Of a DNA stretch of 64,000 nt, positions 1 to 30,017 are shown one piece after another. This DNA is from Mustelus asterias (taxonomy: Eukaryota). A model generated the notes under the pieces. It ran no database searches, had not been told where the DNA came from, and saw nothing but the letters and a program-made list of their open reading frames with translations. The position numbers and the translations under genes were made by a program. Each line of letters begins with the position of its first letter. Positions within the stretch are counted from its first letter, which is position 1. Where the stretch lies: contig NC_135813.1 of the NCBI RefSeq assembly GCF_964213995.1, forward strand, positions 97,526,001 to 97,590,000, read 5' to 3'.

Positions 1-346
1 ATGAAATGCGCAGCAGAGATTCAATTTTATTTTTCAGGCTGGAAACTGTCTCATTTGGGGTCACGTTAATTGTCTTGAGACGTCCATCTGTATTCCTGAC
101 GAATATCTCCGTTAATTTTGTTGTGAGTAGCTGGAGCTTTGCATCAAAGAATATTCCGGAATCCAACAAGGATTTGTTGTCAGCCAGAATGGTTTCATTA
201 AAGATCAGGCGTTGCTGGGGAGCTGGAATCTTCCATTGTTGCTGGACTTGCTGCTTGATCATTGAGATCTTGTCGCTGATGTTAAGTTTCAGGCTTAACG
301 AGGATCCATCCAATTGAAACACCGTGATTTCAGTATTTTTCATTGG
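1..346 (-). CDS. OASL: OASL exon 6 (partial): tandem ubiquitin-like domains
   Basis: Acceptor TTAG at 347-350, phase 0. Manual translation: PMKNTEITVFQLDGSSLSLKLNISDKISMIKQQVQQQWKIPAPQQRLIFNETILADNKSLLDSGIFFDAKLQLLTTKLTEIFVRNTDGRLKTINVTPNETVSSLKNKIESLLRIS, i.e. UBL1 plus the start of UBL2. Open to the window edge. Confidence 0.9.
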
Positions 347-883
347 CTAAGACAAGTTTTTAAAAAATAAATAGAAACATTATGCTTTTTTTGGGAAATG
401 GAGACAGTTGTCTCTTTTTTAGTCAGTACTCCAATAACTACATCTACCTGTGGTTCTTCCTGTCCCTCCTGACTGATTCTGGCGGGGTTGATGACTATAT
501 TCCAGTATCTTACACAAGTGGCCACTCTTCTTGTCTGGGCTTTGACCAGGTTTATCTGACCTTTTTGTGCAAAACTACAATTCAATTTTTTTCTCACTCG
601 GGGGCTAATGAGCAAATTTTGGATAAATAATGTTTGACACAACATTGAACATGAGTTTCAAAACAAAAACAGTTCAGGCGTGAAAGAACCAACTTGCTCA
701 GAAAAAAAAAGTCAAAGCAATAAATTGATCATTTAAAAATTAGTGATAAATAAGATTGTCCATTCGAGTGTGGGAGGGTAAGAGTTTGAGTCCAGCTTAC
801 TCCAATTCTCAGGGTGCTCATTCACTCACCCTCATCCATTGTGATAGTGGCTGAGAATGCCTATTGAGAGCCAGACCTATGCT

Positions 884-1935
884 CACCCTCCCCCTCTCTC
901 TCTATGCACACCCTCCCCCTCTCTCTCTCTCTGTGCAGACCCTCCCCCTTCTCTCTCTCCATGCACCTCCGCCCCCTCTCTCTCTATGCACTACTTCCCT
1001 CTCTCTATGCACGCTTTCCCTCTCTTTCTGTCTCTATGCACACCCTCCCCCCCTCTCTCTATGCACACACTCCCCCTCCTCTCTCTCTCTCTGCACACCC
1101 TCCCCCTCTCTCTCTCTAATGCACACCCTTCCCCCCTCTCTAATGCACACCCTCCCCCCCCCCTCTCTAATGCACACCCTCCCCCCTCTCTCTAATGCAT
1201 ACCCTTCCCCCCTCTCTAATGCACACCCTCCCCCCCTCTCTCTAATGCATACCCTTCCCCCTCTCTCTAATGCACACCCTGCCCCCTCTCTCTAATGCAC
1301 ACCCTCCCCCACCTCTCTCTATGCACACCCTGCCCCCCCTCTCTCTAATGCATACCCTCCCCCCCTCTCTCTAATGCACGCACACCCTCTCCCCCCCTCT
1401 AATGCACACCCTCCCCCGCCTCTCTAATGCACACCCTCCCCCCCTCTCTAATGCACACCCTCCCCCCCTCTCTAATGCACCCCCTCCCCCCCCCTCTCTA
1501 ATGCACGCACACCCTCCCCCCTCTCTCTAATGCACACCCTCACCCCCCTCTCTAATGCACACCCTCACCCCCCTCTAATGGACACCCTCCCCCCCCTCTC
1601 TAATGCACACCCTCCCGCCCTCTCTCGAATGCACGCACACCCTCCCCCCCTCTCTCTAATGCACCTCCCCCCCCTCTAATGCACGCACACCCTCCCCCTC
1701 TCTCTAATGCACACCCTCCCCCCCTCTCTCTAATGCACCTCCCCCACTCTCTCTAATGCACCTCCCCCCCCTCTAATGCACGCACACCCTCCCCCTCTCT
1801 CTAATGCACACCCTCCCCCCCTTCTCTCTAATGCACCTCCCCCCCTCTCTCTAATGCACGCACACCCTCCCCCTCTCTAATGCACACCCTCCCCCCCTCT
1901 CTCTAATGCACACCCTCCCCCCTCTCTATGCACAT
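884..1935. repeat. Minisatellite, ~25-30 bp unit (CTCTCTAATGCACACCCTCCCCCC)n, in OASL intron 5
   Basis: Directly visible tandem array; G-rich on the OASL sense strand. Confidence 0.95.
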
Positions 1936-3039
1936 CGCTCCCCCTCACACACGTGCATACTTTCTCTCTGACTCTCTCATGCACACACTCTCTTTCTCAC
2001 ACACAAACGCACTCACTCGCTTTCCCACTCACTCTCTCACATTCCAGTGGACCCCATTCTTGCTCTGGATCCTGCTTTCTCCCTACGTCTTCCCTACAGG
2101 CCGCTCTTATTCTGACTCTCCTGGGCTCTGCTCTCGCTCTGGACACCACTGCAACTCTGGATCTGGCTCGTGCTCGTGCTCCAGATTCCACATTCGCTTC
2201 TGGTCCCATTCTCCTAACTCCCCTGGACCCAGCGCTCACTCCTGGGCCCTGCTCTGCCACCAACCCCCACCCCTCCCCCCACCTCCTGTACCCAGATCCT
2301 GTTCGCCACCCACTCTGCCCCAACCCCCTCTTACGCCCCCACTCTCTCCTGACCCCCCCTTCTCCTCCAACCCCTGGCACCCCCCAGCCCCACTCTTCCC
2401 TCCCCCCCCCCCCTTCCCCGGCCATGCTTTGCCCCACAATTGTGCTCAGTCAACCACCCCCCCCCCCCCCCCCCCCCCGCCCCCCCACCACATGAAATCT
2501 GGCGCAGCACTTGGACAAGCCCAGCCCAGACAGTCAGATTTGTTCAACCATTCGACTAAGTGGGATCCTGTATATCTGGTGTGTGCACACGTACAATATA
2601 TGATCAGTGGAAATTCCAGCTGATTCTTTCTGTAGCTCCAGTGCAAGGGTGTTGAGGCCAATTATAGCACTCCCCACATTCAGCTGACATCAGCTAACTC
2701 AGAACAGACTGAGAACGGAACCTGGGGAGTTTCTGATTGGAGCGAATCTCCAGATATCTTGCCGTGGGAATCCTCATGGGTGGGAAGGAGACTTGGACAG
2801 ACAGGCAAAAGGTCTGTTGCCCTCGGGCAGGGATTTCCGATCCTGGGGTGGGACGGACTGGAATATCCTACCCTTGGTCTTTGACCTCAGAGAGCTGAGT
2901 TCAAATCCTGCTCCTGAACCTGAAGTTGCCGTGTACTCTTGATAGCTGGAACTCCCAGATTTAACAACAGAGTCTTCACAAATCCTACAATCTGCGTTTC
3001 CTTGTATCAAAACTTTATTGTTTATTAAAACAGTTTTAC

Positions 3040-3172
3040 CTGGACGGCCCATGCTTGAACTCCAGAGACACATGGCATTCTCAGACACTTGCTGGCCTCA
3101 TCCACCATCACACGCCACACAGAAGGCATAGCCACGTTTCCTGTTGGATCAGCTGGGTCAAGAATTATTGGC
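3040..3172 (-). CDS. OASL: OASL exon 5
   Basis: (R)PIILDPADPTGNVAMPSVWRVMVDEASKCLRMPCVSGVQAWAVQ carries the OAS signature RPxILDPADPT. tttcag acceptor, GTAAAA donor, 133 nt, phases match neighbouring exons. Confidence 0.95.
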
Positions 3173-3229
3173 CTGAAAAATAAAACCGTTCCAAAAACAA
3201 TAATTAACCATAGGCCAGGACTCACTTAC

Positions 3230-3452
3230 AGGGGTGGGTTTAGCTCAGTTGACTGGATGGCCGCTTGTGATGCGGAGTGTCGCCAACTGCACGGGTTCAA
3301 TTCCCGTACCTGCTGAAGTGATTCATGAACCTTCTCAACCTTGTCCCTCGCCTGAGGTGTGGTGATCCTCAGGTTAAATCACCACCAGTCAGCTCTTCCC
3401 CTCAAAGGCAAGAGCAGCCTATGGCCATCTGAGACTATGGTGACTTTACCTT
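3230..3452 (+). mobile_element. tRNA-derived SINE, second family (non-V)
   Basis: A-box TAGCTCAGTTG and B-box GGTTCAATTCC; body shared with copies at 26785, 40812 and 58063. Confidence 0.7.
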
Positions 3453-3685
3453 GACATACTATATTTGTGATGAGGGTAAATATTTTAAACCTCATCACCA
3501 TTCAAATCTTTCCCCAAACAACGCTTTCTCTCTGTTGCCTTCACCAAGGATCCACATCTCGGATTTCAACCGTTGATTTCAGTATTCCTCTGTCCTGGAA
3601 CACCCTGTGCATTCAAGCTTCCACATAGTCTCTCAGTGCTCAGCCATGCCAACAGAACACCACTGCTTCACTTTCTACTTAGAAA

Positions 3686-3996
3686 GGAAGCTAGAACTAG
3701 AGGGCACAGCCTCAAAATAAAGGGGGGTCGGTTTAGGACAGAGTTGAGGAGGAACTTCTTCTCTCAGAGGGTGGTGAATCTCTGGAATTCTCTGCCCACT
3801 GAAGTGGTGGAGGCTACCTCGCTGAATGTGTTTAAATCACGGATAGATGGATTCCTGATCGGTAAGGGAATTAGAGGTTATAGGGATCAGGCGGGTAAGT
3901 GGAACTGATCCACTTCAGATCAGCCATTATCTTATTGAATGGTGGGGCAGGCTCGAGGGGCTAGATGGCCTACTCCTGTTCTTATGTTCTTATGTT
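3686..3996 (+). mobile_element. CR1 LINE 3' end
   Basis: RTRGHSLKIKGGRFRTELRRNFFSQRVVNLWNSLP is the CR1 ORF2 C-terminus; (TTCTTATG)n tail. Confidence 0.9.
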
Positions 3997-5034
3997 CACA
4001 GGCTGGATTAAGACATCACCAACCTTAGGATCACCATAGGTGCCTCGTTTCTTGGTAGCCAACTTTAAGTCTGCTTCAGGCAGTTGTCTTTTTAATTCCG
4101 AGCCCTTTCCCTGCTCTTTGCTTTAACTTCACCGAACAGGACTTGTCCAGATTCCTACTCTTTGTTCCTCTGACTCAATTGTCTTCCTGGGAAATTCCCT
4201 GGTTTCTGGGACTTTCTCCTTTAGTTTCTGGGACTTGTTTTCTGTTCCTCTGCATTGTCCTGCCTGCACTGACAGTTTGTGGAATGCTACTTGCCTCTGG
4301 GTTGCCTGGTTCAAACTGACAACTCAAGTGCTTCTGCTTTTCAGTCTGAGCCTCTGGCTGTGAGGCAACAGCTTAGTTTTTTTTTAACCCTTTAATTGTT
4401 TTACACCTTATTACAGTGCAGGCAATGTTTAAAGTGAAACTAAAGCTCACAGGCTTGCACCCACCTATTTTAACATGGGGCTAAACTGGAATTTTGACCC
4501 TTAGGGCACAAATGCAGAAACACAAATTAGGTTTAAACTTACACCTTGTTCCTAATACCCACAATGCAAACATAAATTACTTAAGCCATCTGTGGTTCTA
4601 ACACACAGAATTTTAAATATTGTAAATATCTCAAGATGCATGGGGAAGAAACAGATGTTGACCTGTCGTAGAATCGGAGCAGCTAACCAAAGGTTTTCAG
4701 GCAGTTTGAAAATGGGAAAAGACATCGTGAGCTGAAGATGTTTATGAAGACTTCCATAATGTGGCAGCAAGATGATGTAAAGCCTTGCTACTGATTGGCT
4801 AATAACTTACAATAGGAGGTGGCGGGCATGAGTGGAACAGAGACTGAAGAAAGGTGCAGAGGCAGGATAGGGAAACCAGATGAAATGATGATGAGGCTTG
4901 TAAATGAGGGTAAATATTTCACACCTTAATAATTAGTTGGCGAAGGAGCCAGAGTGGAATTTTTAATGGTAGCTAAGTACAGTCTCAGATGAGAATGTAG
5001 CATTGTCAGAACTGTTGCCTCATAGACACATTTT

Positions 5035-5125
5035 AAGAACATAAACATAAGAACTATGAGCAGGAGTAGCCCATCTGGCCCCTCGAGCCTGCTCCGCCAT
5101 TCAATAAGATCATGGCTGATCTTTT
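5035..5125 (-). mobile_element. CR1 LINE 3' tail fragment
   Basis: Reverse complement of the CR1 3'UTR/tail seen at ~3920-3996. Confidence 0.75.
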
Positions 5126-5369
5126 CACAAATAACCAGTGTCAATTCTCAATCCTAACATCCAGCTGCATATCCATCACATTCAAATAATGCATCCAACA
5201 TTTCACCATAGTATCAAAGTTAAGGACCGATATTAAAGACCAAGTGAGCTGGACTGTAAAAACTCTGAACGCCCCCCCCCCCCCCCCCCCCACCCCCATG
5301 CTTTACCATTGCTGTTCAAAGAAGTGGAATTGCTCTAATTGGTTTAGTTGCAGTGTGGCTGAAGCTTAC

Positions 5370-5620
5370 CTGTTGCCACGGAGTTTCTCCATTAGGAAGT
5401 CTGCAATGACTCTATTGTTGACATCATAGTATTTGGTCCAGTAGATGCGCAGCTCCTGATATTTGCAGATCAATTCAAGGACTGTGCGGAACCCTTCAGC
5501 TGTGTTGAATCTCTCCTGCCCATTGCCTTGCTCCCAGGCATAGATAGTCAGCAACTCCACTGCATACTTAGCAGGCAGGCGTTCACCAGGGCTCAGCTCA
5601 GATTTTCGTGGCTTGACATA
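5370..5620 (-). CDS. OASL: OASL exon 4
   Basis: YVKPRKSELSPGERLPAKYAVELLTIYAWEQGNGQERFNTAEGFRTVLELICKYQELRIYWTKYYDVNNRVIADFLMEKLRGNR contains the OAS motifs ELLTIYAWE and GFRTVLEL. tag acceptor, GTAAG donor, 251 nt. Confidence 0.95.
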
Positions 5621-6480
5621 CTAGAATAAATGGTTGATAAATATAAATAGACATTGAGTATTAAAAGTATTCAGTCCTCCTTCCATCCCATCCTATATTT
5701 TTGCTTCCATTTATTTCTATTATTCTTCCAAGACCACACAACTTTCCTGATCGGATTGGCCGGAGTTAGACCCAGACCAAAGCTGCCATCTTAGCGCCCA
5801 CCAGGAAATCTGGAGGATCTGCCCAGAGTGGCCTTGTTTCATCCTTTTCTCTGTCCATTGGATGACACCTCATTTCTGTTCAGTATTCCTTCATGAAGCT
5901 GAGCACACACACTGTCCATGTGCAACCTGTAGACATGAACCTACATGATGGTGTGTTGGAGTCAGGGTTCAAAGGGAAGCAGCAAGGACTTGCTGCTTAG
6001 ATACGGGGCATCTTTCACAACCTCAACATTGCTGAAAGTGCTTCCCAGTGATGAGGTATTTTAAAGTTGCAATGCAGCAACCAATTTCCACACAGCAAGA
6101 TCCCACAATCAACAATGAGTTCAATGGCTAGGTTTTCTGTTTTACATCATGTTGGTTGAGGTTAAAACTTGTCCAGCAGAACAACCTATTCTTCCTCGAA
6201 TCATCTTACGGGATATTTTAGGCTCACCCTGAGAGGGCTTTGATTGAATACCTGACCTGAAAGTTATGGGGGAAGAAATTTGTTTTGGTCCATGCGCTGT
6301 CCTGGGATGGTGTACTGACAGTGTGCTGAAACCAGACACTCACCTGAAATTGGACCCTGGCCCTTATTAGAAAATTGCTGGAAGGTTACGGTCTCCTATT
6401 GGGTATAAAACTGCAGTTACAGATCCCACGGGGACCAAGCTTCCTCCCCAGGAATGACCATCGTTTGGGCTATGACTATT

Positions 6481-6772
6481 GGGCAGCACAGTGGCACAGT
6501 GGTTAGCACTGCTGCCTCACTGCACCAGGGACCCGGGTTTGATTCCCAGCTTGAGTCACTGTCTGCGCAGAGTCTGCACGTTCGCCCTGTGTCTGCGTGG
6601 GTTTCCTCCGGGTGCTCCGGTTTCCTCCCACAAAAGGGTGCACTGGCCATGCTAAATTCTCCCTCAATGTACTCGAACAGGTGCAGGAGAGTGGCGACTA
6701 GGGGGTTTTCACAATAACTTCATTGCAGTGTTAATGTAAGCCTACTTGTGGCACTAATAAATAAACTAAACT
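6481..6772 (+). mobile_element. V-SINE (HE1-like), tail type B
   Basis: tRNA head GGCACAGTGGTTAGCACTGCTGCC, V-domain GGGTTTCCTCCGGGTGCTCCGGTTTCCTCCCAC, tail CACTAATAAATAAAC. Confidence 0.85.
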
Positions 6773-7549
6773 TATCAGATAGGGAGAGGACTGGGGGCGG
6801 GGGCGGGGGGGTGAATGAGAGTGTGCTGGAAGCAGCAGGAAAGCTGGGAACGCCACCGAGAGGAGGTCCTTTCTACACATAAAATATTTAAAACAATATT
6901 TAGATAGAAACTGCATGAATAGGAGAAGGCTGTTCAAACTTGCCACTGCAAGGCACAATGTTGAAGGACTAAAAGATTTCCGGGTAAAATCCTTGATATT
7001 TGGCCTGACTGGAAGTAGTTGCAGGTTGAGGGTTCGAGGATCCATGTCTGATCTGTTCTTCCTTTGAATTCAGCTCCTCCACAGAGCATGGGTTTTGGGA
7101 ATTTGCTCTTTAATTCCTTTGAAAATTAAGAGCTGATTTTATATATTTTCGGCCTAAACCAGAAGGTGTACAGGAACTCTCCCCTTCCTCCAAATTCATT
7201 CCAACAACTTCAACCAAAGGCAGATGGTGGCCGAAGGGCAGCACAGACCTCTAATTATTCTAAATATTGACCCTGACTTTCTATTGGTTCTGACAACCTC
7301 CTGTTGTAACCTCAGCAAAGACAAGTGGAGATCCCGGAGAAACAGCAGAAACTGACACTTCTCCAAAGAGTGTACCATTCCAGACACTGGTTTTTAATAA
7401 GGGGGAATCCCAGATTAATCTGCGGAGTGTTTGTCATTGGAGTGGGTGGACATTGAGACAGGGAGGGAAGCTATTTTTAAATTTATTTCAATTACAATCC
7501 TCCCATGTCCTCCAAGCATTAACAGTTGCCATGCTCCCCAGTCACTCAC

Positions 7550-7725
7550 CTGTTTGTACCAATATTTCAGCAGGCGAATCAAGTCTTTCAGTTTTGGTTT
7601 ACACTCCTTCACAAAGTTCCTCTGAAGCTCAGTAAAACAGGCAGAAAATTCTCCACATTCAGCTTTATTTTCGTTTACTAACTGGATTAGCTTGAGATGG
7701 GCTCCATGTGCATTGCCTGGTCCCT
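7550..7725 (-). CDS. OASL: OASL exon 3
   Basis: (E)GPGNAHGAHLKLIQLVNENKAECGEFSACFTELQRNFVKECKPKLKDLIRLLKYWYKQ contains the OAS motifs CFTELQRNF and LIRLxKxWY. tgcag acceptor, GTGAGT donor, 176 nt. Confidence 0.95.
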
Positions 7726-7779
7726 CTGCAAGGAATGAAATGATTAATGAGCAACAGAAAATGCACCATTTGTGGTTAT

Positions 7780-8475
7780 CACAAGTGAGCAGTGTATGAG
7801 CTCGCCTACTCTTTGGCTAAATAATCCATTCACCTGCTTACATTTTATGGCTGTTCTGTCAGATCTGTTCCATTTCACAGACTGCTCCGACCCCTTCCTC
7901 TCCCCTCCAGAGCTATAATAGGGTTCCATCGGTCTTCACTTTCTACCCCACCAGCGTTTCTATTCGATGGATTATCCTCCATCATTCTCACCACCTTCAG
8001 CGTGATGCCATTACCAAAAGGCATCTTCCCTTCTCTTTGTACAGCATTTGAAAAGGACCGATTCATCTGTGACACCCTGGTCCATTCCACTCCCTCAACA
8101 GCTCCCTCCCTTTCCCACAGCACCTTTCCATGCAAGCACAGGAGATACAATTCCTGGCCTTTTACTTCTTCCCTTCTCACTGTCGAAAGCCTCAAAGATT
8201 CCTTCCAGGTGAAATACTATGTCCTTTACTGTATTCACTGCTCATGTTATGGTCTCCTTCACATTGGAGAGGCCAAATCACCTCCCATCAGTCTGCAAGA
8301 TAGCTCCAAGTTTGCCCTCACCTGACATTCCCCGCCATGCGCCCACTCTGACCTCTACCCTGACCTTGACCATTGTTCCAGTGAAGCTCAATGTGTGTTT
8401 GAGGAACATCTCATCTCATCTTTCGATCAGTCCCCAGACAGCCTTCTGGACTCAACATCAAGTTCAACAATTTCA
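7780..8475 (+). mobile_element. Degenerate Penelope-like retroelement fragment (GIY-YIG endonuclease region)
   Basis: ORF 8002-8325: ...DTLVHS...TFPCKHRRYNSW...VLYCIHCSCYGLLHIGEAK resembles the Penelope Cys linker plus GIY-YIG motif. Confidence 0.65.
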
Positions 8476-8886
8476 GATCATAATCTCTGGACAATTGGGA
8501 TTCGCTTAGTGGTAAAAACTGTGCAGCATGGACAAGTTGGGCCGAAGGGTCTGTTTCCATGCTGTAAACCTCTATGTATACTAACCTTTCTGACAACATC
8601 ATCTTATTACCAAACTGTGTTAATGCCAGTGCTAAAATATTGTCAATCATAAACTCCTCAGTGTCTGTGACTGGCTGTTGCGATCTGATCCACTCAGAAA
8701 ACACTTTGAAAATACTCTCCCTCAACAACGATAACTCTAATAACTAAATATGGATCTCAATGACTGTATCATCTTAACTAAGAATAGGATACGTGGCAAA
8801 GGAGAGACAATAACACCCACTTGATGAGTAGCAGAGGCTCACATAGATTTAAAATTGAACTTGAGCTTTAGTGATTTAGTTCTTAC

Positions 8887-9184
8887 CTATTGCGTCAAAG
8901 CTTGGCAAAATATCGAAATCCACTCTGTCCGAACGTTTCTTTCTTGATTGGATTGAAAAGTTGAGGGATTTGGGTGGGGTGTCGTTCGGTGGAATATTGA
9001 TAGTGACATCACTGATGTCAAAAGCGATGCTTCTTGCACACTCTGTCAACACTTTCTGAATTTCTTTCAGAATCTCACACCTGTTGCTTCTCAGCTCCTG
9101 GAAACTCAGGAAACAGTTGAGGAAGACAACCAGATCCGCATCGGAACCGTTTCTTAAAGCTGTCCCTTTGCCTGATGACCCTCC
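8887..9184 (-). CDS. OASL: OASL exon 2 (nucleotidyltransferase core)
   Basis: Manual translation: GGSSGKGTALRNGSDADLVVFLNCFLSFQELRSNRCEILKEIQKVLTECARSIAFDISDVTINIPPNDTPPKSLNFSIQSRKKRSDRVDFDILPSFDAI. P-loop, DAD and third Asp (FDILP) intact. cag acceptor, GTAAG donor, 298 nt. Confidence 0.95.
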
Positions 9185-9414
9185 CTGAGGAGCAAGAAGA
9201 AGAAACTAACAGTTGTGATGATTCCAGTGACCGGTGACCATTTCAGAAATATTGAAGAGTCATTGAAACCAAATCTCTGTATCCCGGCTTCTGTCTCTTT
9301 CTTGCAGCCATTTCCTTCTCATTTTGTACCCTCTTGACCCCTTTTTGTGAAGGTGCTGACTTATGATGAGTCCGAGATCCACAAGCCCACTCATTAACCA
9401 TGCTTCGGAATTCG

Positions 9415-12870: not shown

Positions 12871-13041
12871 TTTAACAGCTCTGATTACTTTGATCCCAGG
12901 TTGATTCAGAAAACACCGATCCCTCAGAAAGCTACAGATTCTGTCCACTGCATCCCTCAGATGCTTATTAAAATCATTTGGCTCCAGATTATTTTTAATG
13001 AAGTCGTCCAGCTTCCTCTGCTCTGTGTTGTATAATTCCAT
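12871..13041 (-). CDS. OASL: OASL exon 1
   Basis: MELYNTEQRKLDDFIKNNLEPNDFNKHLRDAVDRICSFLRDRCFLNQPGIKVIRAVK is a typical OAS N-terminus (LDxFI...L.P...ICxFL). GTAAG donor, phase 0 into GGS. Confidence 0.95.
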
Positions 13042-13084: not shown

Positions 13085-13305
13085 CCTTATAAAGCAGCTG
13101 CTAACACCTCCCTCAAATATTTAAAACATCTACCTGAGTAAGACTACCCAATAAATCGATGTTCCACACGTCACAGTTTCGGATCTCCACCCTGTTCAAA
13201 AGTTCCCGTTTCAGTGGTTGTGGTTAATTCTAAGCAAACAGCAAATAGATTTTGATTTCCTCAGAAACATGACTTGTTTGGCATGTTGAGTTTCGGTTTC
13301 ATTTC
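13085..13305 (-). promoter_or_regulatory. OASL promoter with ISRE
   Basis: Perfect ISRE AGTTTCGGTTTC at 13289-13300, a near-ISRE AGTTCCCGTTTC at 13201-13212, and TATA-like TTTATAA at ~13087-13093. Confidence 0.8.
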
Positions 13306-19426: not shown

Positions 19427-19664
19427 CATTCTTCGAAGTGTTGATTTGAGTTGGGGTGCCACCAGTCCTCCAGGTCCTCATGGTGAGGCTTAATGCTAAT
19501 AATTAGTGGGTACCAAAACTGAACCTTGCCTGACCCCAGTCGCAATTTCTGCTTCCCTTTAAGCAATGCCAGCACCAAACATATCTTCCCAACCCCTCCC
19601 CTCCCAGTCCCACAAAGGGATTGTTCCCTCTATTACATTCTGATTCACTCTTCCATCTTCCCTA

Positions 19665-20190: not shown

Positions 20191-20799
20191 AATCCATTTG
20201 CCTTCCACAGATATCTTCCTATGCAAGCGCAAAGGATTTAACAAATGGCCTTTCCCCTCTTCCCTTACCACCATTCAGATCACTAAATACTCTTTCAATG
20301 TATTAATAGGTGAATCTGGCTTACATGTCACAAACTATGTCCTCCTAACCTGGAGCAGCAGAGGGACATGGGCCAGGTATAAGCTGCAGACCAGAGCGGC
20401 AGCTAAAATGAGTTTGTGACAATAGTCACAGAGGAAACTCAGGCTTTAGAAACATGGCAAAGATTAAGAGAGATCTGTCCACGAAAACACTCTTGCAGAT
20501 TCTGAACAAACACCATGACATGGAAGTGAGATTTTGCCTTCAGAAAGGGAGTGGTTTTTTTTCTCTGTGTGACCTCGCCTCGTAGAGCTGGAACCTGGCA
20601 ATTTGAGGCCAAAGCATTTGATTTGATAATTAAATTGCCTGCTGTGATGCTCTGTAAGTTTACACGTCCAGCCCCTGACTACAGCTTTGAACAGGCAGCC
20701 AATCTTTCTGAGTCACCACTCAGCTGATTCTGCTCTTGTTGATTTTGTTTGTGACGCCAGGCAGGAATCTGAAACTGATCTACCTGGAATTCAGTACCT

Positions 20800-21190
20800 G
20801 TCACCTGCAGCAAGGTTCACTTCCTGCTCTCACTGTCAGGTTATTTCCCGGACTCTGCGGGGAACTTTCAGGAAATGAAACTTCAGCTCAGATCTATCTC
20901 ACTTGTTTGTTCTAACAGTGCAGGAGGGTGGCAGCAAGCAAAGGGCAGCAGGGCTGTGACGTTCTGTCACAGGCTGTCAGAAAGAATTAAAGGAGTGAGG
21001 AGGGAGCCAGAGACTCACTCACTTATTTAACGGAGGGAAACACAGAGCAAGACTCAGAGCAGTGGAAGCGGACAGAATTTTATTCACTTCTTCCAGGTCA
21101 GACAGTTGTGTTGAGGAAAACTGCGAAAACAAATCGTGCAGGAAAGTGAATCTGTCAACAATCTGCAGATCCAATTTCTTCTGACCTGAT
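20800..21190 (+). promoter_or_regulatory. Diverged ISG15-like promoter and non-coding exon 1
   Basis: GGAAATGAAACT (20871-20882), GGCTGTGACGTTC, AGGGAGCCAGAGAC and TTTTATTCAC occur in the same order as in 27640-27960. Confidence 0.7.
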
Positions 21191-21838
21191 TGGATTTGTC
21201 CTTTCAGTTCAGGAATCTCAGTATTCTAATTCTAGATTTTAAAATGGGTTGTTTTGAATCTCAATGCCACTCACAATTTAAATAAGTTCTTAATATTCTC
21301 TGATCGGGGACAGTATCATTTCAAACACCCCAGGGCCATTTTTCTCCAATTACACTCATTCCCTTAGACTCCATTGATGATCTGCTGAAATGATAATGGA
21401 AAATCAAGGGAAACCCCACAGAATTCCCGAGCCCAGGTTTTTTTTAACCTCCCCAGTAACCCAAACCCACACCCACAGACGGTAGCACATTACACCGCTC
21501 GCTGAGAGCCACTTCAGGCAGATGCCAGTATTGAAGCTCAGAAGACAGACACTCCAGTTTCTGAATATGTTAATAATAGACAGGATAGATCAACAAAGAC
21601 ACATCCAAATGCAAATGGAAGAACAGATTGGGAATCTGCTGCTTATTTTTCCAGGCTGGGAGGAAGGAGTTTGTGCAGATTGGTTTCTTTGGGATTCAGA
21701 TGTTGAGTAGAAAGCCAGACTTTAAGATTATTGTCGATGAGATTTACACAACAGTTACTCCTCACACTTTGCAGCCTGTGCCTGGGATAATGTGTAGTGT
21801 GTGTTAAATTCTGACAAGAGGCTGTTCTCACTGCTGTC

Positions 21839-22143
21839 ATCGCTTCTCGGCCTTTTGGCTAAGATCAAGTGTGGTCTGCTGATGCTGCACTTGGTTGAGG
21901 TCATTGGGTTGCATTTAAGCTTCATTTTCATATGAAGCAATTTTGTAAAGCGGCATCTCGGCCTTTTGGCTAAGATGCAAATGAGATTAAGCCTTGGAGG
22001 AGGTGCAATGCCTACTCCAATCAGCTTGGCTCATGTAGATCAGGCCCAAGACAGGAGTGGAGGCCCTGTCTTGTCAGCTTGGATCGGGAATGTCTCAACT
22101 TGTTGAGACTCTGAATTGGACTTGATTTGATTGAATTGGAAAA
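21839..22143 (+). mobile_element. U2 snRNA-headed repeat, copy 1 (candidate U2-SINE)
   Basis: Starts with U2 5' sequence ATCGCTTCTCGGCCTTTTGGCTAAGATCAAGTGT; second U2 fragment at 21956-21976; flanked by a 20-bp direct repeat at 21806-21825 and 22155-22174. Confidence 0.8.
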
Positions 22144-22206
22144 GTATTTTTTAAAAATTCTGACAAGAGGCTGTCTGACTACAGTGTCTCCCCCAGCAAT
22201 GCTGTC

Positions 22207-22464
22207 ATGCTGATTGTCACCAATGAGGAGCGCATGCAGATATTCCTGAAGAATGAGAAGGGGAAAACATCTACATATGACGTTCTTCCCTTGGAGTCTG
22301 TTCAGGATTTTAAAGCACACGTACAGCTGCAGGAAGGTGTTACAACCAGACAGCAGAGCCTGGTATATGAGGGGAAAGAGCTGGAGGATGGCTGCACACT
22401 CGCCGATTACAATATTCAGCCAAAGGGAACCATCTTCATTACACTACGTCTACGAGGTGGTTAA
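22207..22464 (+). pseudogene. Truncated ISG15-like paralog (C-terminal UBL only, LRLRGG intact)
   Basis: 85-aa ORF homologous to the second half of the 155-aa genes; homology starts at DKRLSDY (~22162) and most of UBL1 is missing. Confidence 0.7.
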
Positions 22465-22511
22465 CATGCACTTGCAGCGGTTAAGATGATCCCTAGATAT
22501 TACAGAAATGA

Positions 22512-22823
22512 ATCGCTTCTTGGCCTTTTGGCTAAGATCAAGTGTAGTATGGACAGGCTGCGCTTGGTTGAGGTCATTAGGTTACACTTTAGCTTCATTT
22601 GAAGCAATTTTTAAAAGCGGCATCTCGGCCTTTTGGCTAAGGTGCAAATGAGATCAAGCCTTGGAGGAGGTGCAATGCCTACTCCAATCAGCTTGGATCA
22701 TGTAGATCAGGCCCAGGACAGGAGGTGAGAGCCCTGTCTTGTCAGCTTGGATCGGGAATGTCTCAACTTGTTGAGACTCTGAATTGGACTTGATTTGATT
22801 GAATTGGATAAATAAATAAATAA
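22512..22823 (+). mobile_element. U2 snRNA-headed repeat, copy 2
   Basis: 38/39 match to vertebrate U2 nt 1-39 (22512-22550); same body as 21839-22143; (TAAA)n tail. Confidence 0.8.
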
Positions 22824-23071
22824 TCATTTATAGTGTATTAATTGATCTTTTTTTCATACATTCCTGTTCTCTCATGTGCAGTTTGTAAGAGACCTGGATT
22901 GCACAGTCACTGACTTAATGATGCTTTTGGCTCTTATTACTAACCTTCTTGCATTCTCAGCTAGGAAAAGATGCTGGTTTAAGCCACTGAACATGATTTT
23001 TACAAGTTACAGCAACTTAATTAACAACATAGGAGCAATCAGGAAACCAGCGAGGTAATGTGTCCAATTCT

Positions 23072-23310
23072 CACAGAATCACAGAATACTACAGTGCAGA
23101 ACAGGCCCTTCGGCCCATTGAGTTTGCACCAATGCATGAAATGCCCTGACCTGCCCACCTAATCCCACTTGCCAGCACTTGGCCCGTAGCCTTGAATGTT
23201 ATGACGTGCCAAGTACTCATCCAGGTACTTTTTAAAGGATGTGAGGCATCCCGCCTCCACCACGACCCCCCCCCCCCCCCCGCCCACCCGCCCCAGGCAG
23301 TGCATTCCAG
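23072..23310 (-). mobile_element. CR1-type LINE 3' end
   Basis: (CACAGAAT)n tail followed by the reverse complement of a CR1 3'UTR and ORF2 end. Confidence 0.7.
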
Positions 23311-24235
23311 ATTCTGATCATTGACTTTGTATTACTTCAGTTCAAATGAATCTTGTCTGATCATTGGTCTAAAACGTGGTTTGTTACCCTTAGAGATTCT
23401 TCTGAAGGGTGAGGCTAATAATGATCCAGTCCCTAATGAGGTCACAGCTCCAAACTGGTCTCTCATTCAGGACAATTCACTTCCTCACTTAAAGAGACAA
23501 TGAGTTAGCTGTTAAAGCAATCCCAAAAACGTCTCGCTGTGGAGAAGGGGCAAACATTCCCCGTATAAACATCAGAAAAATATCAACAAGGATTATCTTC
23601 CTATTTCATTTTAAAATAACTGTTACAGGTAATTGCTTTAGCCTGAATGTGATCTCAGAGAAATGTTTGTGTTCAGCATTGGAATAATTTAATCTGGCTG
23701 CTTCATGTTTTACAACAACAAAGGATATCAGGACTACAATTTACTCCTGCTAAAATATCCAATGTGATTTGAAAATAAAACTGTTTATTTGTATAAAAAT
23801 AAGATGTGTGTTTATATGTGTCTGAATCATCGGTGGTTTTTCCTGAGTTACATCCGGGATCCATATCCAAACCCAGGTTTTGATGATTTACCCAACTGAG
23901 TGTTCGGGGGAGAATCAGCTGTGAATGGGACACCTCTGAACAATGTCCAAGAATCAGCACCGGCCCAGATTTTCCTCACTTTCATTTTATTAATTATATT
24001 GCACCGGTTGATCTTCTGATCCCCATCACATGACTGGCGGCATTTGGAATTCCCGACAGCAGCAGGCGCCAGGTTGGACCTGAAGGGAAAATGTGGAAAA
24101 TGGCCAAAAGTCAGTTTCCCGCTGGTGGGACACAAGTTGGCAATTTTCCAAACCCAACGTTCATGTTGGATTGGGTAGCCCACTGCACCATGTTAGGAAT
24201 TGTATTTGAATATCATGAAGACTCATTAATAAATT

Positions 24236-25421
24236 GGCGGCATGGTGGCACAGTGGTTAGCACTGCTGCTTCACAGAGCCAGGGACCCGGATTTGATTCC
24301 CGACTTGGGTCACTGTCTGTGCAGAGTCTTCATGTTCTTCCCGTGTCTGCGTGCGTTTCCTCCGGGTGCTCCGGTTTCCTCTCACAGTACGGATGATGTG
24401 CTGGTTAGGTGCATTGGTCGTGCTAAATTCTCCTTCAGTGTACCCGAACAGGCGCCGGAGTGAGGCGACTAGAGGATTTTCACATCGAAACATAGAAAAT
24501 AGGTGCAGGAGTGAGCCTGCACCACCATTCAATATGATCATGGCTGATCATGTACTTCCAGTGTCCCTCTACCCCTTGATCCCTTTAGCCACAAGAGCCA
24601 CGTCCAGCTCCCTCTTGAACATATTTAACGAACTGGCCCCAACAGCTTTCTGTGGTAGAGAATTCCACAGGTTCACAACTCTCTGAGTGAAGAAGTTCTT
24701 CCTCATCTCAGTCCTGAATGGCTTACCCCTTATTCTTAGACTGTGCTCCTAGTTCTGGACTTTCCCAACATTGGGAACATTCTTCCCGCATCTAGCCTAT
24801 CCAGTCCCATCAGGATTCTAAATGTTTCTCTGAGTTCCACTTTCATTCTTCTAAATTCCAGTGAGTACAAGCCCAGTCAATGCAGTCTTTCTTCATATGT
24901 CAGTCCTTCCTTTCTAGGAATCAGTCTGGTGAACCTTCGCTAGACTCCCTCAATAGCAAAAATGTCCTTCCTCAGACTAGAAGACCAAAACTGCACACAA
25001 TACTCAATGTGTGGCCTCTCCAAGGCCTTGTGTAACTGCAGCAAGACATCCTTACTACTGCACTCAAATCCTCTTGCTATGAAGGCCAGCATGCCATTAG
25101 CTTTCCTCACCACCTGCTGTACCTGCATGCCAACCTTCAGCGACGATTCCACCATGACACCCAGGCCATGTTGCACTTCCCCTTTTCCTAAACTGCCACC
25201 ATTCAGATAATAATCTTCCTTCCAGTTTTTGCCACCAAAGTGGATAACCTCACATTTATCCACATTATATTGTAGTTACCCACTCAGCCAGCCTGTCCAA
25301 ATCACCCTGCAGCCTCTTAGCATCCTCCTCACAGCACACACTGCCACCCAGCTTAGTGTTGGCTGCAATTTGGAAATCATTGCAGTGTTGTCAGCCTACT
25401 TGTGACACTAATAAATAAACT
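24236..25421 (+). mobile_element. V-SINE (tail type B) split by a CR1 insertion
   Basis: Head and V-domain at 24236-24483; tail CATTGCAGTGTT...CACTAATAAATAAAC resumes at ~25378. Confidence 0.75.
24487..25370 (-). mobile_element. CR1 LINE 3' part (RT C-terminus)
   Basis: KCEVIHFGGKN...KANGMLAFIARG...RPHIEYCVQFWS (ORF 24940-25263). Confidence 0.9.
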
Positions 25422-25934
25422 TTAAAGCAGCTGGTCACAATCACACCCACACTCGACATCACTTCACTCTTGGCCTATAATTACATTCACCAGATGGTCA
25501 TTGCATTGAGTTCACGGCTGTTCAGGTAAGACCAGCGGCAACTCAAAGTGGAGTCAGAGTCTAGGCCTACCATGTGAAGCGAGTGGGGAGGTGGCCGGAT
25601 TGGAAGGTACAGGAGGGCAAAGGGTTGATTGGGTTGGAGTGTGGGACAAGGGAGAGGAAAGGGAAGGTGCTGTGGGTGGGAGGAGGGGATTGTAGTTGAG
25701 GTGGTGAGGGCAGGAGGAGATAATCATGAGAGTAGTGGAGGGAGGGGACCTGCTGATCCAGTCAGGGCCCGAGAGCAGAGCCAGTCCTGTGGATCTGCGC
25801 CTCAGTTTAAATGGCTGTGCTAGGAACACCTCTCCAGGACCCAGTCAGAGGAAGCAGAGGGCCTGTTAGTCCTGTGACAGTCCTGCCCAACCTGATGCAC
25901 AGGCCGTGGTCCCTCCTGTGGGCTGCTCGCAGTG

Positions 25935-26380
25935 CCAGTGGTTTGCCACAACAGCAACATGTGGGAGCTTGTGGAGAGCATTGCAATCGCAGACAACCAC
26001 ATCCACAAAGTGTCTGAATCTCAAGGAAGTTCGACTTTGGAGTTGTTGAGCTGCAGTCTGAGATGCAGACATTGTGGGGAATCACAAAGGGAGGAACTTA
26101 CCTGGACACCTTATCCAGGAAACAATCTCACTCCTTGGGTTAGGTGCTGGTTCAGATCTAGAGAGTGATTAGGGACAGGACAGTGTGACTGGGGGTCAGG
26201 GTGGTCTGGAGAACCCAGGCGCAAAGTAACAAATAGGGATTTATACACCATAGGGCGATGCTGCAGTGCTGGGAACCACAGCCATTGCCCTTAACCAACA
26301 GACACGAGGTTCCTGCTGTCCTGTGTGCATGAGGGCAAAGTCGGGCAGATGAGAAAACACACCACAGCACCGTGGTTGGA
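25935..26380 (+). mobile_element. Old CR1 ORF1-like fragment; empty site of the Harbinger insertions
   Basis: CHNSNMWELVESIAIADNH..., contiguous here but split by the Harbinger at 32021-37888 and 46105-49721. Confidence 0.55.
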
Positions 26381-26784
26381 AAAATGTTGGAACGTCAAAT
26401 TATTATCAGAAAGAGTCGAGATTTAGCCCTTTGAACCTGCTCTGCCAGTCAGCGAGGTCATTGCTGATCTACCTGACTCCACCTTCCCATACTCTCCCCA
26501 TAGCCCACAAAAACCAACTCCAACACTCAACTCAGACACACGCTGCGGGATTTTACGGCCCCGCTCGTCCCAAAACCGTAAAATCCCACCTGAGATCAAT
26601 GACCCATCCCATGATCCGCCACTCGCCCGATCTGATTCCCATGGTGGGCGGGGTGGTGTGGCCAAAACAGGTTTTTCCCTCTCCGCAACCTGTACAAAAC
26701 TTAAATCATAGAATTCACATCAGTGTTGGCAATGTGGAGATGCCATGATGCTACCAGCCACAACACTGTAAAACCTTCCCTGTC

Positions 26785-27026
26785 AGGGGGTCGGTTAAGC
26801 TCAGTTGGTTGGATAGCTGATTTGTGATGTGTGAGCGACAGGTTCAATTCCCACACCGGCTGAGGTTATTTTTGAAGCTCCACTATCTCAGCTTTGCTTC
26901 TCATCTGCGCTGTGGTGAACCTCAGGTTAAATCACAAGTCAGCTTCCACCTCCCCCCGCCCACCGTCCCCCACAGACTCAAAGGGGAGCACAGTCTATCG
27001 TCAACTGGAATTACAGTGACTTTATT
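26785..27026 (+). mobile_element. tRNA-derived SINE, second family
   Basis: AAGCTCAGTTGG...GGTTCAATTCC; same body as 3230-3452. Confidence 0.65.
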
Positions 27027-27541
27027 TATGGTTAGGCTGACACAGTTAGTATCAAATCAAAACAATGCCTTTCACCATAGGGCCTGAGTCAGGATGGCTG
27101 AGTGACTCTGAAACATTACATGGTAAATGTTTGCTAATTTGCATCCCAGTAAGTTTCATGTTTACAATTTATGTAGCATCACGCCTTAAATATGTTACTC
27201 CATTCTTAAAGTTACAAAGCCAATGCTCAGAATGGACCGGGGAAACCCAAATCCATTCCTTACTTGTTTCAAAAACCAAAGTCAAATTCCTATTAATAAT
27301 GGCTTATCAAGCAGGTCAGTTTTTATCTATATATAAATGCTGTGTACTGAGTCTTGTATTAAAACAAAGATTGTTTTAAAAAGAAAACATTGGGGTGAGA
27401 TGAGATTTCTCAGAGTAATAAGTGCTCTGAGGACCCGGGGATTGGGGGTCGGGGTGTGGGGGCCGGGAGAGGGGGAGGGGGTGCGCAGTATCGCATCAAT
27501 CCGCACCGCCCCAATCATTGCTCGGCTGGAGATGGTCTGCA

Positions 27542-27760
27542 GGAAATGGAAAGTGAAACTGATCAGAGGCTGTTTGCTGTCAGCAACAACACAGCTCCCC
27601 GGCTGAGGGTGCGATAATTTGTCAGACACTGAGGGGATTTTTCGGAAATTGAAACTCGAGTTCAGATATATATTTTTATAACAGAGCCGGAGAATGTTGG
27701 GCAATCAGGGAGCAGCAAGGCTGTGACGTTCGGAAACAGGCTCTGAGAATAAAAGGGGGA
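27542..27760 (+). promoter_or_regulatory. ISG15-like copy 1 promoter: two ISREs, CRE half-site, TATA-like sites
   Basis: GGAAATGGAAAGTGAAACT at 27542-27560, GGAAATTGAAACT at 27644-27656, TGACG at ~27724. Confidence 0.8.
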
Positions 27761-27774
27761 GGAAGGGAGCCAGA

Positions 27775-27967
27775 GACACTCGCAGACAGAATAGTTTCAC
27801 ACAGAAGCGACGGAGCAACATCCAGAGCAGCAGAAGCAAAGAGTTTTATTCACATATTCTCCAGATCTGAGAGTCGGTGTGAAGATAAACAGAGAAGACT
27901 AACTGCGCAGAAACAGAGCATCAGAAAATATTCTGCAGTTTAACTTTCCTGCACCTCTGCAAATACT
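27775..27967 (+). other. ISG15-like copy 1 non-coding exon 1 (intron 27968-29537)
   Basis: Donor GTGAGT at 27968; branch-like CACTGAC and acceptor TTTCTCAACAG ending 29537. Conserved in all three copies. TSS approximate. Confidence 0.7.
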
Positions 27968-28515
27968 GTGAGTTCATTCTGCTTTTGGTGGATTTTATTA
28001 TTTTATTTCTGGTGTGTAAATTGGTTTGTTCTGAATCTCAGTCGCGATTTATGATAAATTATTATACAAACCGGGTGGGAAAAAAATAAAGCAAAACATT
28101 TAAAATCTCAAACATGTTGGAGACAAAAATGTGAAATCGGATGTTATTTATTCCAAGGGAGGTTTTCCAATATTTGAAATCAATGCATTAAACATTGATT
28201 CACTCAAATTACAAAGGTCATGGCTTGTTTTTAATTAAAATAGTAAGAGGTTTGGGGTGAATTTCTGAGGCGGGTTCGGAATGGGTTACATTGAATCTCA
28301 CTCATGATTAAAGATACAATCTGATTTCAATGTGGGGACAGTGCATGAGAATATCATTGCAAATTGAAACAGCGAGAGAGATGTGAGTGAGATCAAACAT
28401 TTTTCTCTCCCCGGGTACATTTAGATTTTGGGCGGTCATTTTCATCTCGGTGCGGCATTTAAAACAAACTGAATTCTGATGGAACTCTTCACAACAATTT
28501 CATCATTTGTTATTG

Positions 28516-28822
28516 GGGCGGCAAGGTGGCACAGTGCCAGGGACCAGAGTTCAATTCCGGCCTCGGGTCACTGTCTGTGTGGAGTTTGAACGTACTCCTC
28601 GTGTCTGCAGGGCTTCCTCCGGATGCTCTGGTTTCCTCCCACACTTCGAAGATGTGCAGATTAGGTTGATTGGCCATGATAAATTGTCCCTTAGTGTAAG
28701 GGGTAATTAGCAGGGTAAATACATGGGGTTAGGCAGATATGGCCTGGGTGAGAGAGTTGTTGATGCAGGCTCGATGGGCCAAATGGCCTCCTTCTGCACT
28801 GGAGGGATTCTATGATTCTATG
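28516..28822 (+). mobile_element. V-SINE in ISG15-like copy 1 intron
   Basis: V-domain and GATTCTATGATTCTAT tail; same insertion at 42600. Confidence 0.8.
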
Positions 28823-29549
28823 AACATCCAACACTTTAATCGTTCCAGGTGTAGAGACCTCTGCTGTTAGTTTATTAAGGATGATGAGCACTTCTGAGAA
28901 TTAAACGCCTTCATTCACAGCTCATGCCAGACGGTTTATTTAAGTCACTCTTGTGACATAAAGCAAGATTTAAGAATGTGGGAAGGCTGGGAAAGGGTTT
29001 TGTGAAGAGTGGGATCATTATCAGTTCTTCCAGTTCCCGCAAAGTATTCACCCCTGAAATGTTTACACATCTCAGTTTGGGTTCTGCTAGGATCACCACT
29101 GAATTCCACATCTCGGTGCAACTTGGTCCAAACATGGACTTAAGAATTAAATCGAGAGGTGAGAGTTACTGCTCTTGACAGCAAGGTAGTATTTGACCAA
29201 GTGTGGCCTCATGGCCCTGGTACCACATCGCCACCGGCTGCTCAGTATGTTCAGCGGTCCATGGCTTTGATGTATTGCTCCACTTGGGAATAAAACATTG
29301 AAAGGAAGTCAGATTGAGTTGGGAATACAGTCAGTGCGAATTGCACAATATATTCTTTCCCTAGATTCTGTAACTGTCTGGACAATACATTGCATGTTCA
29401 AAATAGTATTATGTGACTGATCACAATACGCAACATCTTTGATTTGATTTATTATTGTCACATGTATTAGTATCCAGTGAAAAGTATTGTTTCTTGCGCG
29501 CTAGACAGACACTGACATTTAGTCCATTTCTCAACAGAAATTTGACAAG

Positions 29550-30017
29550 ATGAGACTCCAGGTGAAGTTTATGACCGGTGAGATTGTTGAACTTGAGGTC
29601 AACCCTTCCATCCAAGTCTCGGCTCTCAAGAAGATGATCTATGAAAAAACCAAGGTGCCCCATTTCCGTCAGCGCCTGATGGTTCAAAACGGAAACACGG
29701 TGGTTTTGAGAGATGACAAGCGGCTGTCTGACTACAGTGTCTCCCCCAGCAATGCTGTCATGCTGATTGTCACCAATGAGGAGCGCATGCAGATATTCCT
29801 GAAGAATGAGAAGGGGAAAATATCTACATATGACGTTCTTCCCTCGGAGTCTGTTCAGGATTTTAAAGCACGCGTACAGCGACAGGAGCGTGTCCCAACC
29901 GATCAGCAGCGTCTGATGTACGAGGGGAAACAGCTGGAGGATGGCCGCACACTCGCTGACTACAATATTCAGTCTGAAAGCACCATCTTCCTTATGCTAC
30001 GTCTGCGAGGTGGTTAA
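29550..30017 (+). CDS. ISG15: ISG15-like di-ubiquitin protein, copy 1 (155 aa)
   Basis: Two UBL domains, C-terminal LRLRGG directly followed by stop, single coding exon, ISRE promoter, AATAAA at 30939 and 31126. Confidence 0.9.

What the first reader, a model, noticed from the sequence alone, without database searches (positions are those of the whole stretch)
1..30017. OASL is linked head-to-head to an ISG15 array, and its UBL exon shares the ISG15 splice position
Seen: OASL exon 6 begins acceptor-PMKN-TEITVFQLDG. Each ISG15-like coding exon begins acceptor-AAATTTGACAAG-ATG, which reads KFDK in frame with no stop, then MRLQVKF(M/L)TG. In both genes the acceptor is exactly 12 nt (phase 0) upstream of ubiquitin position 1, both UBLs lie in one exon, and UBL2 starts IF(V/L)(R/K)N-x-x-G. 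Established: the OASL tail resembles ISG15, and the two genes are on different chromosomes in human. Inference: this locus may preserve the ancestral linkage in which an OAS gene captured an ISG15 coding exon by splicing, or ISG15 budded from the last OASL exon.
Basis: partly seen in the sequence, partly recalled or inferred. Interest (0 to 1): 0.85.

Follow-up and report, generated by a model that had tools for sequence, protein, structure and literature searches.

The report
ISG15 sits beside OASL in sharks
In this shark the antiviral tag gene ISG15 lies in a tandem array right beside the OAS/OASL virus-sensor genes, and family trees plus a shared splice position indicate that OASL likely gained its two-ubiquitin tail by splicing onto an ancestral ISG15 exon.

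Summary
Confirmed. An intact OASL (500 aa, ends LRLRGG+KEI) faces away from one broken and five intact ISG15-type genes. Both splice acceptors lie 12 nt before ubiquitin position 1, and contigs from relatives show both junctions. The linkage is not confined to this species. ISG15-type and OAS genes share a contig in 7 of 7 comparable sharks and rays. Salmon ISG15 lies among genes of the same segment. Coelacanth and boa gene models join an OAS unit to an ISG15-type exon. Trees pair UBL1 with UBL1 (90/86) and UBL2 with UBL2 (96/97); rival groupings are rejected only in the largest controlled set (p 0.004-0.044). Phase 0 and a single coding exon are not diagnostic, because this genome's polyubiquitin genes have both (3 and 6 nt). 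The exact 12 nt recurs in seabass ISG15B but not in human ISG15. Best reading: OAS captured an ISG15-lineage exon at this locus before jawed vertebrates split, and mammalian ISG15 later moved. The direction is inferred. FAT10, teleost and mammalian ISG15 were not in the trees. Not found in ten literature searches or in earlier findings of this scan.

The parts
1..346 (-). OASL exon 6 (4-codon lead, UBL1, UBL2; continues to C13:97525873 and ends LRLRGG-KEI-stop)
   Evidence: junction to exon 5
3040..3172 (-). OASL exon 5, phase-0 donor at 3040
5370..5620 (-). OASL exon 4 (OAS1_C)
7550..7725 (-). OASL exon 3
8887..9184 (-). OASL exon 2 with the D72-x-D74 pair and a third Asp at 148
   Evidence: catalytic role from established knowledge of OAS enzymes
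12871..13041 (-). OASL exon 1, coding part
13289..13305 (-). Tandem ISRE-like site upstream of OASL
20843..21168 (+). Diverged exon-1-like region of a broken ISG15 copy (68% to copy 1), ISRE-like site at 20872-20882
22161..22465 (+). 3' remnant of an ISG15 coding exon (90% to copy 1; front of UBL1 missing), between two U2 snRNA-like sequences
27549..27656 (+). ISRE-like sites of ISG15 copy 1 (27549-27560, 27645-27656)
27600..27967 (+). ISG15 copy 1 non-coding exon 1 (5' end approximate; in-frame stop 11 codons before the ATG after splicing)
29538..30017 (+). ISG15 copy 1 exon 2: 12-nt lead, CDS 29550-30017, 155 aa ending LRLRGG
41634..44101 (+). ISG15 copy 2 (ISRE 41634, donor 42051, acceptor 43622, CDS 43634-44101)
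59121..61324 (+). ISG15 copy 3 (ISREs 59121 and 59217, donor 59539, acceptor 60845, CDS 60857-61324)

Best explanation
An intact OASL and a tandem array of ISG15-type genes lie side by side in this shark, likely preserving the ancestral jawed-vertebrate locus where an OAS gene likely captured an ISG15-lineage coding exon as its ubiquitin-like tail. Shown: gene structures, both junctions, the 12-nt leads, the gene order in this genome. Inferred steps: (1) A two-unit polyubiquitin-type gene (non-coding exon 1, phase-0 acceptor, Met at ubiquitin position 1) lost the cleavable junction after unit 1 and became proto-ISG15. (2) A copy came to lie downstream of an OAS gene on the same strand. The phase-0 donor of OAS exon 5 spliced to its acceptor, so the 12-nt untranslated lead became a four-residue linker and LRLRGG was kept. 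(3) The free gene stayed beside OAS in sharks and rays, stayed in the segment after teleosts lost OAS, and moved next to AGRN in the mammalian line. Predicted function today: both genes are interferon-induced. The array makes a 155-aa tag that needs no C-terminal trimming. OASL is an active 2-5A synthetase whose tail could be conjugated once three residues are removed, as reported for chicken OASL.
For: Linkage: same longest-contig length for ISG15-type and OAS proteins in 7 of 7 species where both were listed with a chromosome-scale contig. Near-consecutive RefSeq numbers in 2 of the 6 species looked up for both genes. Order here: INPP5J-like, PLA2G3-like, OAS-B, OASL, ISG15 array, P2RX2, POLE, PXMP2-family. 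Salmon ISG15.1 is next to PXMP2 and near PLBD2 and MORC2A (PMC12234341 supplement SF1.5); matches to these three families lie on C13 here. Coelacanth models H3BDF0 and XP_014342322 and boa model XP_063171880 join an OAS unit to a di-UBL that groups with the shark array at 97/92. The boa di-UBL's best non-ubiquitin structure match is ISG15. Common ancestry: UBL2+UBL2 95/91, 95/96, 96/97 and UBL1+UBL1 99/97, 90/84, 90/86; OASL1+2, ISG1+2 and Ub+ISG-UBL2 are rejected (p-AU 0.004, 0.023, 0.044). The 12-nt lead recurs in seabass ISG15B (read by eye in the supplement of PMC9680060) and as a four-residue lead in the coelacanth model; this genome's polyubiquitin genes have 3 and 6 nt. Direction: ISG15 keeps Met exactly at ubiquitin position 1 and the polyubiquitin gene layout, its UBL2 is closer to ubiquitin (58%) than OASL's (45%), and invertebrate OAS lacks UBLs (PMC6307210).
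Against: The 67-row tree leaves the base unresolved and misplaces mammalian OASL UBL2. In the 29-row set the rival groupings are not rejected (p 0.145, 0.076). UBL1+UBL1 is not starred once controls are added. By raw identity the OASL tail of sharks and rays is closer to ubiquitin than to ISG15 (UBL1 34 vs 25%, UBL2 45 vs 40%), and mammalian ISG15 is not among the best 60 structure matches to OASL UBL1. Shark ISG15 UBL1 has an insertion that shark OASL UBL1 lacks. Human ISG15 has its ATG in exon 1 and, by alignment, a 3-nt lead. The present divergent orientation cannot itself produce an OAS-to-ISG15 splice. Same contig is not adjacency, and these species share karyotype history. The coelacanth and boa records are gene models and may be chimeric. 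No chimaera ISG15 appeared. FAT10 and teleost and mammalian ISG15 were not in any tree.
Confidence: 0.62

Rival explanations
1. Same shared ancestry, reverse direction: OAS first gained a di-ubiquitin tail, and ISG15 budded from a copy of that last exon with a new promoter and first exon.
For: The trees are symmetric and cannot give direction. OASL exon 6 carries an ATG in codon 2 here, and lungfish OASL has Met at ubiquitin position 1, so a start codon could be inherited.
Against: It needs a new non-coding exon 1 that happens to recreate the polyubiquitin layout. ISG15 is the less diverged from ubiquitin. Position 1 is Met in only 1 of the 24 OAS proteins read out.
Confidence: 0.15
2. OASL's tail and ISG15 came separately from polyubiquitin (a four-unit gene lies 18 Mb away on C13). 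Their pairing in trees reflects later gene conversion between neighbours or similar constraints.
For: Polyubiquitin genes share phase 0 and one coding exon. Raw identities favour ubiquitin. The coelacanth OAS model carries an ISG15-type tail (UBL2 65% to shark ISG15, 43% to shark OASL), which suggests exchange does happen at this locus.
Against: OASL tails from chimaera to mammals form one group (99/95), so any conversion would predate jawed vertebrates and amounts to shared ancestry. Independent-origin topologies are rejected. The 12-nt lead differs from both polyubiquitin genes.
Confidence: 0.15
3. The shark array is a cartilaginous-fish di-ubiquitin family unrelated by descent to mammalian ISG15, so the linkage says nothing about ISG15.
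For: Sources name these proteins 'polyubiquitin-like'. The UBL1 structure match to mouse ISG15 (39.9 bits) barely beats UBL4A (39.3). No ISG15-type match lies near AGRN on C22.
Against: The array groups with a boa di-UBL whose best match is ISG15. The second-ranked Atlas cluster is ISG15 (0.95). Gene layout and neighbours match teleost ISG15. No other free di-UBL gene was seen among 58 ubiquitin-family matches (the list is a lower bound).
Confidence: 0.08

Closest known systems
Teleost ISG15 (seabass ISG15A/B, PMC9680060; salmon ISG15.1-6, PMC12234341)
   Same: Two exons with the whole CDS in exon 2, ISREs, tandem copies, two UBLs ending LRLRGG, a 12-nt lead in seabass ISG15B, neighbours from the same segment (PXMP2, MORC2, PLBD2).
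   Different: Teleosts have no OAS, so the linkage cannot be seen there. The shark array still faces an OASL.
Mammalian ISG15
   Same: Two UBLs, C-terminal LRLRGG, ISRE promoter, insertion in UBL1.
   Different: ATG in exon 1 with a 3-nt lead, C-terminal extension, HES4-AGRN neighbourhood. Shark UBL2 keeps ubiquitin's QQRL where human has an aromatic stretch.
Avian OASL (PMC8764230)
   Same: OAS unit with catalytic aspartates plus a tandem UBL ending LRLRGG and a short extension. The paper notes the ISG15-like structure and self-conjugation.
   Different: Birds lack ISG15. The passages read treat resemblance and function; 'ancest' and 'synten' do not occur in its main text.
OASa.U class (PMC10400998) and the OAS-UBL fusion model (PMC6307210)
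   Same: Both date or propose a UBL gain by OAS; the first places it before the last common ancestor of jawed vertebrates.
   Different: Neither main text contains 'ISG15', so no donor is named there. This locus supplies a candidate donor and a splice mechanism.
Polyubiquitin genes (UBB/UBC type)
   Same: One coding exon, phase-0 acceptor just before the ATG; one such gene is on the same contig.
   Different: Leads of 3 and 6 nt, identical units, cleavable junctions.

Membership tests
ISG15 | Two tandem non-identical UBLs, no cleavage site between them, C-terminal LRLRGG | tested here: met
ISG15 | Two-exon gene with both UBLs in exon 2 | tested here: met
   junction; teleost layout in PMC9680060
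ISG15 | Groups with bony-vertebrate ISG15 | tested here: inconclusive
   97/92 with coelacanth and boa di-UBLs; boa matches ISG15 structures best; no mammalian or teleost row was available
ISG15 | Conserved neighbourhood with teleost ISG15 | tested here: met
   PXMP2-family match 240 kb from the array; MORC and PLBD families on the same contig
ISG15 | Mammalian HES4-AGRN neighbourhood (a mammalian trait, absent in salmon too) | tested here: not met
   AGRN on C22; no match in 120 kb upstream or on C22
ISG15 | Interferon induction | tested here: inconclusive
   ISRE-like sites at each copy; 14 matches in the window against 0.77 expected, but the copies are not independent; no induction data
ISG15 | Conjugation through UBA7, UBE2L6 and a HERC ligase | not testable with these tools
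   needs biochemistry
OASL (OASa.U) | One NTase plus OAS1_C unit followed by tandem UBLs in a last exon | tested here: met
OASL (OASa.U) | Tail groups with tetrapod OASL tails | tested here: met
   99/95; best non-ubiquitin structure match is chicken OASL
OASL (OASa.U) | 2-5A synthesis or RIG-I enhancement | not testable with these tools
   three aspartates present; activity untested
FAT10/UBD | Closer to FAT10 than to ISG15; MHC linkage | tested here: inconclusive
   Atlas score 0.93 for a ubiquitin D cluster against 0.95 for ISG15; not in the best 60 structure matches; no FAT10 row in trees
Polyubiquitin (the database label) | Near-identical ubiquitin units with cleavable RGG junctions | tested here: not met
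   33% and 58% identity to ubiquitin, no internal RGG

The most novel reading that the evidence does not exclude
The OAS cluster is the birthplace of ISG15 and a standing exchange site. A 12-nt, phase-0, stop-free lead on the ISG15 exon has stayed splice-compatible with OAS exon 5 since early jawed vertebrates. It made OASL once, was used again in the coelacanth, whose OASL carries a fresh ISG15 exon, and may explain the late UBL gains reported in squamate OAS. Bird OASL conjugation would then be inherited ISGylation, and the prenylated tail of OAS1 p46 the remnant of a sister UBL-CaaX exon.
Probability: 0.3. Interest if true: 0.82.

Novelty: new variant of a known kind. Interest (0 to 1): 0.64.

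Why it matters
Papers date the UBL gain by OAS to early jawed vertebrates but name no donor. This locus offers a donor, a place and a one-step splice mechanism, all testable from public genomes. It ties the 2-5A and ISGylation arms of the interferon response to one ancestral cluster. It suggests why bird OASL can be conjugated where ISG15 is missing. It recasts human ISG15's position as derived. It also shows that shark and ray ISG15 genes are hidden in databases as 'polyubiquitin-like'.

Tried and rejected
Expected human-type OASL neighbours: the adjacent P2X gene matches P2X2 best, not P2X7, and the HNF1 match on C13 is 32 Mb away, so the HNF1A-OASL-P2RX7 order (recalled) is not kept here. 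A UNG search found nothing and is uninformative. A targeted search for teleost and mammalian ISG15 returned only cartilaginous fish (21 of 23 candidates), so those rows are missing from the trees. RefSeq number adjacency was uninformative in 4 of 6 species. No holder is on record as RNA; X9 and X10 showed intron cover and no splice joint at these exons. The idea that bird and turtle OASL tails were converted from ISG15 was dropped because all OASL tails except the coelacanth's form one group. The coelacanth and boa tails were tested inside the OASL group: p-AU 0.049 and 0.116, so exclusion is marginal for the first and not shown for the second. Phase 0 and single exon were rejected as evidence. 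Neighbour scans covered the 150 longest of 691 left and 145 of 564 right non-repeat frames, so small genes may be missed. PMC162331 and PMC7172724 were not held; the supplement of PMC10400998 could not be read and may bear on the coelacanth and squamate UBLs. Earlier findings of this scan: nothing relevant.
Full report
Observation. The window is G000:C13:97526001-97590000. It holds a six-exon OASL on the minus strand, open for 500 aa and ending LRLRGG-KEI just left of the window. On the plus strand lie three intact 155-aa di-UBL genes and one broken one; two more intact copies follow the window. The five intact coding regions differ by 5-30 of 468 bases, a recent tandem expansion. Each has a non-coding first exon, ISRE-like sites and a coding exon whose acceptor is 12 nt before the ATG. 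Contigs of related organisms, guessed to be RNA, bridge 27967/29538 in 2 of 4 runs and continue from 346 into exon 5 in 3 of 4 runs.

The locus. A second OAS gene (OAS-B) lies downstream of OASL and ends in one diverged UBL plus a CaaX box. The order is INPP5J-like, PLA2G3-like, OAS-B, OASL, ISG15 array, P2RX2, POLE, PXMP2-family gene. These names rest on Pfam domains and, for P2RX2, a structure match. AGRN, the neighbour of human ISG15, is on C22 with no ISG15-type match in 120 kb upstream.

Linkage elsewhere. Seven species had both an ISG15-type and an OAS protein listed with a chromosome-scale contig: Hemiscyllium, Heterodontus, Cetorhinus, two Scyliorhinus, Heptranchias and Mobula birostris. 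Carcharodon, Rhincodon, Pristiophorus, the skates, the other rays, Stegostoma, Chiloscyllium and Callorhinchus could not be compared, because one gene or the contig was missing. RefSeq numbers are near-consecutive in Heptranchias (044 against 046-047) and Cetorhinus (448-451 against 458-469) and uninformative in four others. The salmon supplement lists PXMP2-ISG15.1-RBM19-PLBD2-MORC2A and TPCN1-ISG15.2-IQCD-CFAP73. Matches to the PXMP2, MORC and PLBD families lie on C13 at 97.85, 96.0 and 74.6 Mb. That most of those salmon neighbours lie near human OAS1-3 and OASL on 12q24 is recalled, not from a call. A coelacanth gene, modelled with the same junction in two databases, joins an OAS unit through four residues to a tail of ISG15 type, with OAS-B behind it as in sharks. 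A boa model joins an OAS unit to a di-UBL that matches ISG15 structures best, through a stretch that looks like mis-modelled sequence. Either record may be chimeric, but a chimera still implies a close neighbour on the same strand.

Common ancestry of the tails. Four single-domain trees were built. With 67 rows the base is open and mammalian OASL UBL2 falls with the long UBL1 branches. With 29 rows (mammalian OASL and OAS-B left out), UBL1s pair at 99/97 and UBL2s at 95/91, but rivals are not rejected (p 0.145, 0.076). With seven unrelated UBLs from this genome as long-branch controls, support is 90/84 and 95/96. With coelacanth, boa, lungfish and five controls it is 90/86 and 96/97, and OASL1+2, ISG1+2 and ubiquitin+ISG-UBL2 are rejected at p 0.004, 0.023 and 0.044 (the last group was named after earlier trees were seen). 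The alignments have only 76-79 columns, raw identity favours ubiquitin, and FAT10 and teleost and mammalian ISG15 are absent. One shared feature outside the trees: the linker of seabass ISG15B, translated by eye, reads LLVTEPQ, as in turtle OASL.

The splice position. This genome's two polyubiquitin genes also have one coding exon and a phase-0 acceptor, 3 and 6 nt before the ATG, so phase and exon number prove nothing. The exact length is more telling. In seabass ISG15B the last AG is 12 nt before the ATG; I placed the intron by GT..AG and length, counting 113 nt against the paper's 115, with a CA repeat inside, and the ISG15A part was cut from view. A Scyliorhinus partial model starts four residues before its Met. 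A four-residue lead fits 24 of 25 OAS proteins examined; the script fixed the lead at four, the register was judged from alignments, and the exon boundary was checked on DNA only in this genome. Human ISG15 differs: ATG in exon 1 and one residue before position 1.

Mechanism and direction. Splicing OAS exon 5 to an ISG15-type acceptor yields an in-frame fusion with a four-residue linker and the conjugation motif intact, which is what OASL is. This needs a same-strand downstream copy; today's divergent layout could not do it. Capture is preferred over budding because ISG15 keeps the polyubiquitin layout and Met1, is nearer to ubiquitin, and invertebrate OAS lacks UBLs. The direction is inference. 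My odds: linkage ancestral to jawed vertebrates about 0.85, shared di-UBL ancestor about 0.78, capture direction overall 0.62.

What is in print. PMC8764230 (passages) shows chicken OASL's ISG15-like tail and self-conjugation. PMC10400998 (passages; supplement unreadable) dates the UBL gain and notes late UBL gains in squamate OAS; 'ISG15' does not occur in its main text. PMC6307210 (one fifth of the text plus passages) proposes UBL fusion without naming a source. PMC12234341 (passages, part of the supplement) lists salmon neighbours; 'OASL' does not occur in its main text. PMC9680060 (passages, both supplements) gives teleost gene structure. PMC8357416, PMC6002735, PMC13030082, PMC10300353 and 10.1101/693333 were seen as passages only. 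Ten searches found no statement of OASL-ISG15 linkage or descent. Most subscription papers were not searchable, including two older ones asked for by id, so an earlier mention is possible.

Verdict. The genes are ordinary members of known families, and exon capture from a neighbour is a known way to make genes. What appears new is the conserved linkage and the specific origin it suggests for the OASL tail. Interest 0.64.

Noticed in passing
G000:C13:97495099-97513222 (L002-L004), left of the window: OAS-B ends in a last exon with one diverged UBL followed by a CaaX box (WCILM). The same ending occurs in other sharks and rays, coelacanth and a caecilian. The CaaX tail of mammalian OAS1 p46 may descend from this exon after decay of the UBL.
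   Followed up: partly
P0286 and P0422 (coelacanth): The OASL-position gene carries an ISG15-type tail (UBL2 65% to shark ISG15, 43% to shark OASL) with Ile at position 1: a possible second capture or conversion, or a chimeric model.
   Followed up: partly
P0314 (boa): A gene model fuses an OAS unit to an ISG15-type di-UBL, implying linkage in snakes; it may relate to the late UBL gains in squamate OAS noted in PMC10400998.
   Followed up: partly
window 21839-22034 and 22512-22701: Two U2 snRNA-like sequences flank the broken ISG15 remnant (one above and one just below the curated score). They may mark the rearrangement that truncated it.
   Followed up: no
P0134, P0121, P0123-P0125, P0276: Database 'OAS2/OAS3-like' proteins of sharks and rays (up to 2277 aa) look like separate tandem genes joined by gene models; P0134 reads through the OASL stop via two doubtful exons.
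   Followed up: partly
P0277 (caecilian), P0292 and P0423 (axolotl): Amphibian OAS proteins carry a single UBL ending in LRLRGG or a variant of it, rather than two.
   Followed up: no
G000:C6:93234072-93243208 (L046, L047): A distant OAS-family gene on another contig, about 30% identical, with no UBL seen; possibly the OASb class.
   Followed up: no
G000:C523 (L094-L096) and G000:C13:97864813-97865034 (L091): Unassigned single UBL exons: three near-copies on C523, two ending in GG, and one 250 kb from the ISG15 array.
   Followed up: no
G000:C13:97619207-97619406: A 200-N assembly gap between the last ISG15 copy and P2RX2; the copy number of five intact genes is a minimum.
   Followed up: no
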